NCBI GenBank assembly: GCA_951406725.2
Contig: OX597819.1
Location: 11,780,001 to 11,844,000, forward strand
Direction of reading: 5' to 3'
Length of the DNA stretch: 64,000 bases
Source of the DNA: Octopus vulgaris
Lineage: Eukaryota
The translations under genes and the position numbers were made by a program. Of the stretch, positions 348-63,825 are shown one piece after another (position 1 is the first letter of the stretch; every line of letters starts with the position of its first letter). The notes below the pieces were generated by a model that was not told the DNA's origin, made no database searches, and was given only the letters and a program-made list of their open reading frames with translations.

Positions 348-716
348 AGTGAGAATTTACAAAAGAAGACAAAGATGGGTGTGTAAACAACAAACAGATG
401 TATTAGTTTAACGCTCGGGAAGTGGGAAAGTCTTTTACGTTTCGAGCCCACGCTCTTCGACAGAAAGGAACGCGGAAATAAACAGGGAGAGAAAATAGAA
501 AAAGGTTTTGTGGCTAGCGATCTATCATGGCGAATGCCGGACAAACGGGTCACACAGGAGATCTAGGAAGAAGTACATATATATAGTGAGAATTTACAGA
601 AAGACAAAAGACGAAGACGGGTGTGTAAACAGCAAACAGATGTATTAGTTTAACGCTCGTGAAGTGAGAAAGTCTTTTACATTTCGAGCCTACGCTCTTT
701 GACTAGCGATCTATAC
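347..716 (-). mobile_element. Two tandem copies (second internally deleted) of a short Penelope-like non-autonomous element with a hammerhead-like motif (family F)
   Basis: 347-575 and 585-716 repeat each other. Homologous copies lie at ~19845-20025 (+), ~63645-63825 (+) and, partially, ~46395-46465. The minus strand at 432-467 reads cttt CTGTCGA a gagc gtgg gctc GAAA cg TA aaag. Flanks are TA/TACA repeats. Confidence 0.6.
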
Positions 717-1406
717 ATACATGATGGTTGTCCACTCATGGTCGAAAAAGACTGTCATTGACCATTGTCCATGCAAAATGCTTTCAATGCCTGTGCATTA
801 GGTTATTGCACCTGCAGTCGGTTTCACCCGGGTTCGCACGCGCAGCTTCCTTACTTGCCAACTTCTACTCGACTGGTCGTCGGATAATAGTCACCCCGTT
901 GGTGATTACGCAACCTAAAATTTTAGGTCCAATTTGGCTTGCACAACACCTCGCAAATCCTCTATCGACAGACAAGCCAAGGCAATGTATCAAGTGTCAA
1001 TATGGGTTGCAGGCTCAGGAATGTGGGAACGCCATGATCTCAAGCGCAAGCAACGATCCCCAAAACATTTCAATGCCATTCCCTGCATATCCGGTTTTCT
1101 CCTAGAGACATATTCTATAAAATGCTAAGGAATGCCTCACTCCCAGCGGTCTTCAAGCACGACGGACACCAGCCCGGACATACAGACAGACACAGTCTGG
1201 ATAAGCTTGGATTTTCAGAAAAAGAAATCACCCAAATGATTCGGTCAATCTGGAAGCGGAAGAGACTTTTCTCAGGTTTAAAATGTGACATTGTTTTCGT
1301 TATCTACATTCCAAAGATGGAGCTTTCACTCATTGTTAGAAAGCAGCTTCTTCTTTAGAGGATGAATTTAAATGTTTAAAAACACAAGAGAAACGTACAT
1401 ACATGC

Positions 1407-1830
1407 ATTATTGGGGTCCTGGGATATGTAACACACTACCTTAACACCAATCTTGAGAAATTAAGCTTCTCAAAAGCAGAAAGGAGTAAGTTAATTCGAA
1501 GACTACAGATCCAGTCCATCAGTGGAACTGTAAAAATCTGTAAAACTTTCCAGAAGTTTATCATTTAAAAATATACGAGCATGTCTAGATATGGAACTAT
1601 ATGCATGAGAATACAATACATGAAGCAAAACATACAAATCTGCACATACACACACACACACACATGCATACATACATACATACATACATACATACATACA
1701 TACATACATACATACATACATACATACATACATACATACCCTGTTGTTGATGTTGAAATTCCAGTGAAGGAGCCTTGGATCTAGATTAGAAACCGGTTCT
1801 TTCTCTATTGGCAAGAAATCTTGAAATAAA
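1407..1830 (+). mobile_element. 3' end of an RLE-type non-LTR retrotransposon (C-terminus plus 3'UTR)
   Basis: 1407-1568 reads IIGVLGYVTHYLNTNLEKLSFSKAERSKLIRRLQIQSISGTVKICKTFQKFII*, matching the IIGxLG...LQ...KI C-terminal pattern of RLE LINEs. A second similar piece, SLDKLGFSEKEITQMIRSI, lies at ~1194-1250. AATAAA near 1826. Confidence 0.65.
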
Positions 1831-2173
1831 ACTGATCTGTGACATATATATGTATCTGATGTATATATATTTACTTAATGTGTGCAATTTTTTCCCAGTA
1901 CTGAGATTCCAGGTTCGATCCCGTTGCGTGGCACTATGGATTACTTTGGCTCCGGGTTGGCCCGAGTCTTGTGGTTAAACTTAGTGGGAGACATAAACTA
2001 AGGAGAAACCCTTTGGTTAAACTCTGTAATTCAAAAGAACGGCCTCAAAAGAGGTTATGTCATTGATACTATGCGACTATGTTGGTTAGTAGACGAGTCT
2101 TTCGGTGAGTAGAAAGTTCGTTTGAATGAGCGAGTGAATACTCTTCGTCGAAATCGACTGAGATCCAATTGCT

Positions 2174-2443
2174 ATAGATAGACAGACAGACAGACAGATA
2201 GATAGATAGATAGACAGACAGATGATAGATAGATAGATAGATAGATAGATAGATAGATAGATAGATAGATAGATGGATAGACGGATAGACAGATAGATAG
2301 ATAGATAGATAGATAGATAGATAGATAGATAGATAGATAGATAGATGATAGACAGATAGATAGACAGACAGACAGACAGACAGACAGATAGATAGATAGA
2401 TAGATAGATAGATAGATAGATAGATAGATAGATAGATAGATAT
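2174..2443. repeat. (GATA)/(GACA)n compound microsatellite
   Basis: Direct reading. Confidence 0.95.
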
Positions 2444-61357: not shown

Positions 61358-61755
61358 TCTTTATATATAAAAGTCAAGTTGTGTGTCTGTCTCCTACGAT
61401 TTAGATTCCTAACTACTCCCACATTTTGCGGTGCAGTTTAACCAAAACCGGGTATCTTATAGTCGTGATTCATATCGAGCCCTTCTGGGTATTAGCGCAC
61501 GTCTACGATGAGTCTACGATTTTAAAAAAAATTTACCATCATTTTTTTTCCATTTTAATGCATTTTTTTCGCTGTTATATAAGGGAAGTAACTCTCTAAA
61601 AATGTCTACGATGAGTCTACGATTTTAAAAAAATTTACCATCATTCTTTTTCCATTTTGAATGCATTTTTTGTTATTTTTTGGCTATAACTCTCTAAAAA
61701 TGCTTATATAGTTATTTCCCTTACAAACCCGAGCAACACCGGGCGATACTGCTAG
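61358..61755 (+). mobile_element. Non-autonomous Helitron (same family as 37361-37875, with internal duplication)
   Basis: 5' TC, 3' hairpin cccgagcaacaccggg and CTAG; the gtctacgatgagtctacgattttaaaa block occurs twice. Confidence 0.88.
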
Positions 61756-62169
61756 TATATATATATAGATCTTATTTGATATATATATATATATATACAT
61801 ATACATATAGTCAAATTGAAGAGTCATTATAAAAACTAGATGGAAATGTCTTGCATTATTCCTTATGATTAAGGTGACAAGCTGACAAACATCAGCACAG
61901 CAGACAAAATGCTCAATGGAATTTCTTCCGGCTCTCTACATTCTGAGCACCAATTCTACCAAGGTCAACTTTGCCTTTCCTCCATTTGGGGTCAGTAACA
62001 GAAGTATCGGTTGAGATTTGGGTTTGATGTAATTGACTGTCCCCTCACCTAACATTGTTGTCATTATGCTAAAATTTAAAACTATCATTTCTCACGATTC
62101 CCTACATTCTGAGTTTAATTTTATCCTTTCCAGATTGTTTAAAGGGTACCAATTATGTGGGGGGGGGGG

Positions 62170-62422
62170 GGCGCATGGCTTAGTGGTTAGGGTGTTGAAC
62201 TCATGATCGTAAGGTTGTGGTTTCGATTCTTGGACTGGGCGATGTGTTGTATTCTTGAGCAAAACACTTCATTTTCACGTTGCTCCAGTCCACTCAGCTG
62301 GCAAAAATGAGTAATCCTGCGACAGACCGGTGGACCGGTGTCCCGTCCAGGTGGGGAATTTCTATGCCACTGAAACTGGGAAACCGGCCCTTATGGGCCT
62401 GGCATGGCTTGAGAAGGAACAT
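62170..62422 (+). mobile_element. SINE with family E head and V-domain-like tail
   Basis: Head matches the reverse complement of 27720-27871; tail matches the reverse complement of 12345-12445. Confidence 0.8.
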
Positions 62423-63644
62423 TTAATTTTTTTATTTTAATTCTGGGTGGTGAAATTGTAGAACTGTAATGAAGAACAGTTTTATGGAAACTGTACCTGG
62501 TCTTTGCAGTCTGGTGGTCACACCTGTGATAACAATAACAAAGAAACTGTATTAGCCTTGGGTTTCCCCTCAGACATCATTGGTGGCATGAGGAGAGGTG
62601 GTGGGGGACATGCATGCATGGGCAGCTGCTAGTTGTCCTGCATGCAAACCATGCCTATGTCTGCGAGGAACTTTACTGGTACAGAAAACCCTTAACAAGC
62701 CCTAACTGAAGAAGACTCTAGATCAGTAGTTACCAACCACAGCTCCCAGGTCCTCATGTGGCCCTCAAGCATCCTTCTGGTGGCCGTTGACAGTCTTCCC
62801 TCTATAAATTCAATATATGTTCCTTTAATAGACTTTTGTTTTACTTTTTTGTGGTGCAGCCCTCTAAAAAAATTCAGGTCTAGATTTGGCCCTGATATTA
62901 AAAGGGTCTAGGGCTTTTGATACCAGCACAAATAACAGGAATGTGGCATTTGGATAGGCAAGAAATGGAATAAAACTGACATTGTTATTCATTAAACCAA
63001 GAAGTAAATAATTTCAGTCTCGTTATAAAAATACTAATTAATATATAGAATTTAATGAATGATGTTCAGTAAGTGACGGCTGCTAATGTATTGTTCAACA
63101 AGTACAATATCCACTGTCTTTCCAGGTTCAGTTTTTATGGTGTTGCGTAATGTTTGTTAATCACATGCAGCATGAGATCAGTTTTGTAGTGCGTAAAATA
63201 TCAGTGACATTAGCGGAAATTAAACTGCGCTTCAGAAGTCTCATCTGTGCAGAGTGGAAAGCATGGTGTGTCTGTAGTGTTCCTCGTGATGGAGCTAATT
63301 TTAAGACGTATTATTTCATATGACCTTGGAAAATAATAATAAGTATGATAATAATAATGATTTCTAATTTAGTTCAAAAGGCAGCGTTTTGAGGTGAAGT
63401 GAGACAGCCAATTACATTGACCTCAGTACTTGACTGGTACTTTATTTTGACACTAAAAGAACGAAAGGTTAAATTGACTTGTATGACATAGCAATAAGGA
63501 AATCTGTTCGTGTGGCCTGTGTATATCTATGTGTCCATTTACCTCTCTCTCTCTCTCTCTCTCTCTCTCTCTCTCTCTCTCTCTCTCTCTCTCTCTCTCT
63601 CTCTCTCTCTCTCTCTCTCTCTCTCTCTCTCTTTCACTCTTTTA

Positions 63645-63825
63645 ACTACTAAATCCACAAGTTCTTTTTATTCTCTCTGCTTATTTCCTCGTGTTCCTTT
63701 CTGTTGAAGAGCATAGGCTCAAAACGTAAAAGACCTTCTCACTTTCCCGAGTTTCAAACTAATACACCTGCTTCTTGTTCATACACTTGTCTTCATCTTT
63801 TGTTTTTCTGTAAATTTCAACTATA
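63645..63825 (+). mobile_element. Family F Penelope-like element copy
   Basis: Hammerhead-like motif at 63697-63732: cttt CTGTTGA a gagc atag gctc AAAA cg TA aaag. Confidence 0.65.

What the first reader, a model, noticed from the sequence alone, without database searches (positions are those of the whole stretch)
432..63732. Intron seeded with minimal hammerhead ribozyme motifs from several unrelated non-coding families
Seen: type-I hammerhead layouts (stem I - CUGANGA - stem II - GAAA - palindromic mini stem III - UH - stem I') at 432-467(-), 19094-19128(+), 19898-19933(+), 36650-36707(+), 37091-37177(-), 54742-54782(-) and 63697-63732(+). Half-motifs occur at ~34943-34970(-), ~36921-36940(+), ~31044-31075(+), ~40550-40570(-) and ~42278-42310(+). 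Stem III is a self-complementary stub (ACGU, ACAUAUGU, inferred ancestral ACUAGU and ACCCGGGU), and most copies sit in TA microsatellites. Established: Penelope-like elements carry such minimal hammerheads, which cleave as dimers. Inference: this genome hosts at least four or five distinct ribozyme-bearing non-autonomous Penelope/retrozyme-like families with no coding capacity here. I do not know them to be described.
Basis: partly seen in the sequence, partly recalled or inferred. Interest (0 to 1): 0.75.

Follow-up and report, generated by a model that had tools for sequence, protein, structure and literature searches.

The report
Penelope-element hammerheads, one of them rewired
The motifs are worn tail ends of several very common jumping-gene families that carry a predicted self-cutting "hammerhead" RNA of a known kind; two variants stand out, one with a family-wide changed core letter and one with its parts wired out of order, but cutting is untested and these lone intron copies are probably inert.

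Summary
The seven sites are real but are decayed single copies, at the same density as the flanks, in two introns of one gene. A1 has A6 changed to U family-wide (18,342 exact matches; 23 of 23 flank-picked copies) while the free positions 7 and 17 vary. B (36650) and D (54742) are related, non-coding ~357-nt tandem units (retrozyme-like) with C3-G8 versus U3-A8 cores. A2 and C are unresolved. The 'half-motif' at 31044 is most of a non-circularly permuted (type-SGC-like) hammerhead of a young family (4,958 exact matches) with covarying stems. Minimal hammerheads in Penelope ends and animal retrozymes are published; I found no paper on the A6U core or on SGC wiring in an animal genome, but could not read Lünse 2017. 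The scan had already noted the rewired motif and a 359-nt retrozyme elsewhere in this genome, and A6U in another genome. Cleavage and circular RNA are untested.

The parts
300..574 (-). Family A1 3' end (pLTR) of an autonomous Neptune-type Penelope-like element; hammerhead motif 432-467 with CUGUCGA (A6U) core
   Evidence: ORF link in other copies
577..699 (-). Second A1 fragment in tandem; 5' half of the core deleted
19047..19215 (+). Family A2 3' end; motif 19094-19128, CUGACGA core, this copy G12A; autonomy unresolved
19832..20034 (+). Family A1 3' end; motif 19898-19933, CUGUGGA core, intact relative to its family
25810..26365 (+).
31048..31208 (+). Family G: 5'-truncated copy of a ~767-nt terminally redundant non-coding unit; hammerhead blocks in S-G-C order (S 31048-31057, predicted cut after 31051; G 31065-31075; C 31090-31102)
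34719..34868 (+). B-superfamily fragment without the hammerhead
34902..35132 (-). Family H: inverted, truncated copy holding the 3' half of a type I motif (34943-34970)
36551..36867 (+). Family B: part of a 357-nt non-coding tandem unit; motif 36650-36697, C3-G8 core, C10.1/A11.1 mismatch family-wide, this copy U16.1C
36918..37025 (+). Family I: piece of a 549-nt tandem non-coding unit; hammerhead words present, fold unresolved
37036..37184 (-). Family C 3' end; motif 37091-37177 with long stem II and A10.1/A11.1 mismatch; young (97-98%); autonomy unresolved
40534..40576 (-). Family C fragment (3' half of motif)
42223..42349 (+). Family F decayed copy, 5' half of motif deleted
54569..54933 (-). 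Family D: ~358-nt non-coding unit with 5' inversion; motif 54742-54782 with U3-A8 core
55232..55498 (+). Cysteine-rich coding exon of the host gene; preceded by a 71.9-kb intron and followed by a 10.0-kb intron; the upstream exon has an IGFBP match below the Pfam cut-off
63665..63859 (+). Family A1 3' end; motif 63697-63732, CUGUUGA core, this copy G12A

Best explanation
The motifs are the 3' terminal repeats of 5'-truncated Penelope-like retroelements and of short non-coding tandem units that likely borrow the Penelope enzymes; each carries a hammerhead motif predicted to cut the source element's tandem precursor RNA, while the lone, decayed intron copies are likely inert. Shown: family membership, copy numbers, linked RT/GIY-YIG frames for A1 and E, unit periodicity for B, D and G, variable 5' ends, 5' inversions, TA-rich 3' ends, stem covariation. 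Inferred: target-primed reverse transcription at TA repeats leaves only the 3' repeat; two type I motifs in a tandem precursor pair through their palindromic stem III and cut to release a unit-length RNA (established for other PLE hammerheads, Cervera 2014); B/D units may cycle through ~357-nt circles like animal retrozymes; A1 keeps a slow A6U ribozyme; G folds as a pseudoknotted S-G-C monomer and needs no partner.
For: A1: four loci run from a GIY-YIG frame through a 0.7-0.9-kb 3' region into the motif (L233, L234, L235, L383); L235 has a 557-aa frame and two motifs in partial tandem, 27% identical over 320 aa to a frame with a Pfam RVT_1 hit. E: tandem array of period 3,624 with an 899-aa frame whose Atlas neighbours (0.95-0.98) carry HTH_animal and GIY-YIG. 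B: direct repeats of period 354-362 in 14 of 30 loci (13 insertions), D 351-365 in 7 of 30; two full motifs head to tail in 3 of 30 long B loci; longest stop-free stretch in the B and D copies tested 91 and 111 codons. B and D differ by compensatory changes at C3-G8/U3-A8 and in stem I, and a third subfamily bridges them (73% over 234 nt; 63% over 153 nt). A1: U6 in 23 of 23 flank-picked copies, position 7 = 5 G, 7 C, 5 U, 6 A, position 17 = 16 A, 7 U, never G. G: 18 distinct S-G-C hits with 6 different S blocks, 0 in any other order and 0 in reversed or complemented sequence over 1.59 Mb; 4 of 6 stem I pairs change on both sides, 0 of 500 shuffles reach it. E's stem III does not fold alone (0 kcal/mol) and gives -10.3 as a duplex.
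Against: No cleavage or RNA-end data. A6 changes are damaging (natural A6C kobs below 0.1/min, Perreault 2011 section 8). Loop II of A1 is also well kept, so recent ancestry explains part of the conservation (motif 0.91 against 3' flank 0.83 identity). B and C lack the usual G10.1-C11.1 junction directly at the core. B copies run through the upstream cut site, so no 5' pile-up there. Hammerhead mutants did not affect insertion of an anole PLE in vitro and no RNA reads ended at its cut site (Frangieh 2024 passages); 8 of 9 frog retrozyme dimers did not cleave (Li 2026). No ORF was found for A2 or for C up to about 1.7 kb upstream. G's stem II junction has a 5-nt insert and is ambiguous. The G structure was derived from the aligned sequences, and related sequences can beat the shuffle control.
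Confidence: 0.85

Rival explanations
1. The motifs are catalytically dead or dispensable relics. A1 lost its ribozyme once (A6U) and went on spreading; the hammerhead-shaped RNA is kept, if at all, as a binding site for the Penelope protein.
For: A6U family reached at least 18,342 copies. In vitro insertion by an anole PLE did not need cleavage. Another Neptune family and B, C, D all deviate from the canonical core or junction. Most frog dimers did not cleave.
Against: Variation in A1 falls on positions 7 and 17, which are free in catalysis; C3-G8/U3-A8 swap is the known activity-preserving change; G 5' ends cluster just after the predicted cut (11 of 30 in 13 nt against 1 of 19 in the next 14 nt, p = 0.017).
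Confidence: 0.3
2. All families are independent non-autonomous retrozymes spreading through small circular RNAs.
For: Holds in form for B, D (357-nt units) and G (767-nt units); no coding match in the window.
Against: A1 and E are joined to RT/GIY-YIG frames in longer copies; C extends at least 1.7 kb upstream without a repeat period; no circle evidence was obtained.
Confidence: 0.07
3. Sense-strand copies cut the host pre-mRNA and regulate splicing of the long intron.
For: Six motifs lie in sense (19094, 19898, 26222, 31048, 36650, 63697); E is intact; G would not need a dimer.
Against: Density equals the flanks; orientation is mixed; copies decay like other copies; E has no partner; the window's G copy lacks the outer part of stem III.
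Confidence: 0.05
4. Chance matches in low-complexity DNA.
For: 0 of 7 sites pass the strict descriptor; no Rfam hammerhead match.
Against: 0 hits in all controls; tens to thousands of genomic copies with intact family motifs and covariation.
Confidence: 0.01

Closest known systems
Minimal hammerheads (min-HHR) in pLTRs of metazoan Penelope-like elements (Cervera and de la Pena 2014, PMC4209133; parts 1-2 of 4 read, supplements not seen)
   Same: Type I layout, short palindromic stem III, extra nucleotide after A9, U3-A8 core variant, thousands of mostly solitary copies from truncated elements, close inverted pairs, few copies next to a full ORF.
   Different: Family-wide A6U core (A1) and mismatched 10.1/11.1 junction (B: C/A; C: A/A) are not in the parts read; no cephalopod named in them.
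Metazoan non-LTR retrozymes (Cervera and de la Pena 2020, PMC7229834, passages; Li et al. 2026, bioRxiv 10.64898/2026.07.22.740005, parts 1-3 of 5)
   Same: B/D: non-coding units in the 170-400-nt range (mussel 350-390), one type I motif per unit, monomers and dimers dispersed, relation to PLEs.
   Different: Motifs are minimal variants; copies are mostly 1-1.6 units with PLE-like 5' inversions and TA-targeted 3' ends; circular RNA untested; cephalopods not mentioned in the passages found.
Type-SGC hammerheads (Eckert et al. 2023, PMC10085705, passages)
   Same: Family G and three other sequence groups have blocks in S-G-C order with covarying stems I and III.
   Different: Those were found in metatranscriptome contigs, not genomes of known organisms; here they sit in chromosomal repeats in thousands of copies; G has an insert at the stem II junction; cleavage untested.
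Natural core variants (Perreault et al. 2011, PMC3088659, section 8)
   Same: U3-A8 active; position 6 and 10.1/11.1 variants occur rarely.
   Different: Position 6 variant there is A6C in one phage (kobs < 0.1/min); mismatch there is U/U.
Octopus repeat annotation (Bonar et al. 2026, PMC13282606, part 1 of 3 and a term search)
   Same: Recently active Penelope-like families are known in an octopus genome (31 families).
   Different: The words ribozyme, hammerhead and retrozyme do not occur in its main text. That this window is octopus is my recall of its SINEs, not a call result.

Membership tests
Penelope-like element pLTR min-HHR | Motif lies in a terminal repeat next to an RT + GIY-YIG ORF | tested here: met
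   A1; E. Not shown for A2, C, F, H.
Penelope-like element pLTR min-HHR | Partial or full tandem, 5' truncation, 5' inversion | tested here: met
   L235, L232; inversions in B, C, D, H loci
Penelope-like element pLTR min-HHR | Conserved core CUGANGA...GAAA...UH (or U3-A8) | tested here: inconclusive
   Met at family level for A2, B, C, D, E; not met for A1 (U6 in 23 of 23)
Penelope-like element pLTR min-HHR | Short palindromic stem III; G10.1-C11.1 closing stem II | tested here: inconclusive
   Palindrome met in A1, A2, B, C, D, E; G-C junction met in A1, A2, E and part of D; B and C have a mismatch first
Penelope-like element pLTR min-HHR | Self-cleavage as a dimer | not testable with these tools
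   bench test
Neptune clade (for A1) | Cys-rich linker between RT and C-terminal GIY-YIG | tested here: met
   CxxxxCxxC motif before the GIY-YIG in L235; clade definition from PMC8557442 passages; no tree built
Non-LTR retrozyme (for B, D) | Non-coding tandem unit of about 170-400 nt | tested here: met
   period ~357
Non-LTR retrozyme (for B, D) | At least two consecutive units each with a whole type I motif | tested here: met
   B: L243, L245, L247. Not seen for D in 30 loci.
Non-LTR retrozyme (for B, D) | Canonical hammerhead with loop 1-loop 2 contacts | tested here: inconclusive
   minimal variants; tertiary contacts not assessed
Non-LTR retrozyme (for B, D) | Abundant circular RNA of unit length | not testable with these tools
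   only assembled contigs were on offer
Type-SGC hammerhead (for G) | Blocks in S-G-C order with stems I and III | tested here: met
Type-SGC hammerhead (for G) | Stem II directly after CUGANGA | tested here: inconclusive
   5-nt insert in G; one extra A in the L163, L203 and L408 groups
Type-SGC hammerhead (for G) | Helix joining stems I and II | tested here: inconclusive
   a candidate 5-bp helix is 91.8% paired with no two-sided change
Type-SGC hammerhead (for G) | Cleavage at the predicted site | not testable with these tools
   indirect only: 5' end clustering
Rfam Hammerhead_1 (RF00163) | Score over the gathering cut-off | tested here: not met

The most novel reading that the evidence does not exclude
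An animal genome carries thousands of working, pseudoknotted type-SGC hammerheads that cut as monomers at the ends of Penelope-mobilised elements, a wiring so far reported only from metatranscriptomes; alongside them a Neptune retrotransposon has run through several subfamilies with a functional A6U core.
Probability: 0.6. Interest if true: 0.72.

Novelty: new variant of a known kind. Interest (0 to 1): 0.5.

Why it matters
The bulk is ordinary repeat debris of a published kind. What matters is the natural experiment on what Penelope hammerheads are for: one genome offers an intact canonical motif (E), a compensated core (D), a mismatched junction (B, C), a family-wide A6U core (A1) and a rewired S-G-C form (G), each with natural dimers or tandem copies that can be transcribed and assayed. 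A working S-G-C motif would extend non-circular permutation to animal chromosomes and mean that standard searches miss a class of ribozymes. A dead A6U motif in an 18,000-copy family would show in vivo that cleavage is dispensable for Penelope spread.

Tried and rejected
Rfam scan of the window: only microsatellite-driven miRNA matches among the 150 shown. Strict descriptor without extra nucleotides missed all seven sites. L005's Neptune frame next to an A1 copy is another family with its own U3-A8 motif; L120's frame next to a C copy likewise has its own 3' region. Walking C upstream and A2 upstream found no contiguous ORF; RT fragments near L368 and L380 are separated by microsatellites and other repeats. 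Five PLE proteins against 150 B, D and G loci hit 6 loci (L086/L091 one insertion); I did not inspect these one by one. Pfam misses the E and A1 frames; no solved relative of E. A 5' pile-up at the cut site was looked for in B and not seen. A Naiad link for the S-G-C motif was not tested beyond reading five short upstream stretches, which had no relevant frame. RNA runs: no RNA holder listed; only contigs guessed to be RNA, used for the exon alone; two of four runs laid nothing. Atlas search of the exon gave only weak leads. Lünse et al. 2017 is not held. Sequence and place look-ups in earlier findings returned nothing. A search for deep-mutational data on the core found nothing relevant.
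Full report
Setting. The window is G000:C6:11,780,001-11,844,000 of a 2.8-Gb animal genome, rich in microsatellites and SINEs; they look octopus-like to me from recall, which no call tested. 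Contigs from 2 of 4 runs (guessed to be RNA, two studies) cover 55230-55498 and continue into sequence found at L195:3334-3353 and L197:1467-1486, with GT/AG ends. So bases 1-55231 lie in a 71.9-kb intron and 55499-64000 in a 10.0-kb intron of a + strand gene with an IGFBP-like exon (E 1.4e-5, below cut-off) and cysteine-rich exons.

Check of the observation. All stretches are there. Allowing the extra nucleotide after A9, U3-A8 and any base at 6 gives 3 hits in the window (2 of the 7, plus 26222) and 7 in 200 kb of flank; reversed, complemented and 10 shuffled versions give 0. The motifs are real, mostly decayed, and not enriched here. Eight of nine elements end 3' in a TA-rich microsatellite.

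Family A1 (432, 19898, 63697). A pattern with positions 6 and 7 free has 23,804 exact matches, 18,342 of them with U6; controls 0. To avoid selecting on the core I collected copies by the 3' flank: 34 records, 11 dropped (5 refetched duplicates, 4 cut by a locus edge, 1 truncated, 1 with the core deleted); the anchor still required UG at 4-5 and the bases after A9. All 23 have U6; position 7 takes all four bases and position 17 is A or U, while other core positions differ in at most 1 of 23. Four loci run from a GIY-YIG frame through a long 3' region into the motif, with N7 = G, U and A. L235 holds a 557-aa frame with YIDD, a Cys linker and GIY-YIG and two motifs in partial tandem; it is 27% identical over 320 aa to a frame with an RVT_1 hit. 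A1 is therefore the tail of an autonomous Neptune-type element (clade by motif, no tree). A2 (19094) shares the motif with A6; no ORF link was found.

Family E (26222). Of 40 scored matches all are 100% identical by the tool's rounding. A tandem array has period 3,624 and an 899-aa open frame whose Atlas neighbours carry HTH_animal and GIY-YIG; Pfam itself is silent. The window copy is 556 nt of 3' region at 98.6%. Its 8-nt palindromic stem III does not fold alone and forms a -10.3 kcal/mol duplex.

Families B (36650) and D (54742). Sequence downstream of the motif recurs upstream of it: period 354-362 in 14 of 30 B loci and 351-365 in 7 of 30 D loci. Three of 30 long B loci hold two whole motifs head to tail (one pair also). 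Exact motif matches: 123 and 28. B has C3-G8 and a C/A mismatch at 10.1/11.1; D has U3-A8 and G-C or A-U there; stems I differ by compensatory changes; both keep a palindromic stem III. Direct B-D similarity is weak (43 nt, 77%), but a third subfamily bridges them. These fit non-LTR retrozymes in form; 5' inversions and TA-targeted ends point to Penelope machinery (inference). B copies pass through the upstream cut site, which fits a circular or an uncut tandem template. In one locus (L088/L261) a B 5' end abuts a short RT-like fragment; one case, unexplained.

Family C (37091, 40550). Young (97-98%), long stem II, A/A at 10.1/11.1, frequent inverted pairs; a relative in L002 shows a compensatory change in stem II. 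It extends at least 1.7 kb upstream without an ORF or a period: unresolved.

Family G (the 'half-motif' at 31044). Earlier scan notes on rewired hammerheads in this genome led me to re-read this site. The family is young (40 scored at 98-100%; five pairs 761-770 nt apart), has 4,958 exact matches and no Penelope-like frame was found around 60 loci. Its blocks lie in the order cleavage site, GAAA, CUGANGA. A scan for all block orders over 414 records (1.59 Mb, enriched for G by my own searches) gave 18 distinct hits, all S-G-C, in 6 S-block groups, three of them (L163/L408, L203, L300) unlike G in sequence; reversed and complemented controls gave 0. On 17 aligned copies 93% of cells pair; stem I has two-sided changes at 4 of 6 pairs; 0 of 500 shuffles reach that, though relatedness and a structure drawn from the same sequences inflate this. 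Stem II follows a 5-nt insert in G and one extra A in L163, L203, L408. Among 30 pattern-picked loci 11 begin within 13 nt after the predicted cut and 1 of the other 19 in the next 14 nt (p = 0.017); the stretch holds ATTAAT, so microhomology with TA targets is a rival cause. The window copy starts within 4 nt of the predicted cut, next to a small inversion.

Other halves. 34943 and 42278 are 3' halves of type I families seen whole elsewhere. 36921 is a piece of a 549-nt tandem unit whose fold I could not resolve.

Mechanism. Shown: the anatomy above. Established elsewhere: PLE min-HHRs cleave weakly and only as dimers or with an extended stem III (PMC4209133). Inferred: source elements use the motif to process tandem precursors; reverse transcription at TA repeats scatters truncated tails; single copies in this intron have no partner and decay. 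Against a needed role for cleavage: Frangieh 2024 (abstract and passages) and 8 of 9 inactive frog dimers.

What is in print. Read: PMC4209133 (parts 1-2 of 4), bioRxiv 2026.07.22.740005 (parts 1-3 of 5), PMC3088659 (passages, section 8), PMC13282606 (part 1 of 3, term search), passages of PMC8557442, PMC7229834, PMC6765202, PMC10085705, PMC11167929. No supplements were read. Lünse 2017 was seen only as a title and may hold relevant variants. Searches for hammerhead+Penelope+octopus, A6U (50), octopus Penelope (51), non-circular permutation+retrotransposon (88), Naiad+hammerhead (89) and retrozyme+cephalopod (123) found no description of cephalopod PLE hammerheads, of an A6U family or of SGC motifs in an animal genome; the library lacks most subscription papers.

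Verdict. Observation partly confirmed, interpretation partly supported. Mostly new members of known kinds, with two real variants (A6U, S-G-C) whose activity is untested. Interest 0.5.

Noticed in passing
window 38254-39727: Thirteen near-identical 113-bp tandem copies of a SINE 3' part.
   Followed up: no
window 31228-33161: Nested tandem repeat with periods of about 33, 62 and 340 bp.
   Followed up: no
window 10619-10870 and 20038-20249: Long inverted repeats of one dispersed family; miRNA-like Rfam matches far below gathering.
   Followed up: no
window 36918-37025; G000:C18:83923912-83926204: 549-nt tandem non-coding unit with a CUGACGA word and a later GAAA-palindrome-UA whose stems do not close in type I order; possibly another wiring.
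   Followed up: partly
L157-L186, 3' of the ORF: A very abundant Neptune-type family (18,923 first-look candidates, frames up to 851 aa) has a U3-A8 hammerhead in its 3' region.
   Followed up: partly
L031 1501-1547(-); L032, L033, L036: Best genome-wide Rfam Hammerhead_1 matches (34-45.5 bits), families not present in the window.
   Followed up: no
L337 (- strand, near 1942): Subfamily bridging B and D: U3-A8 core with B-like flanks.
   Followed up: partly
L088/L261: A B copy whose 5' end abuts a short RT-like fragment; could mark a template switch to the partner element or a nested insertion.
   Followed up: no
   Followed up: partly
L195 3151-3355, window 55232-55498, L197 1467-: Host gene with IGFBP-like and cysteine-rich exons; CRIM1-like by recall, not tested.
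   Followed up: partly
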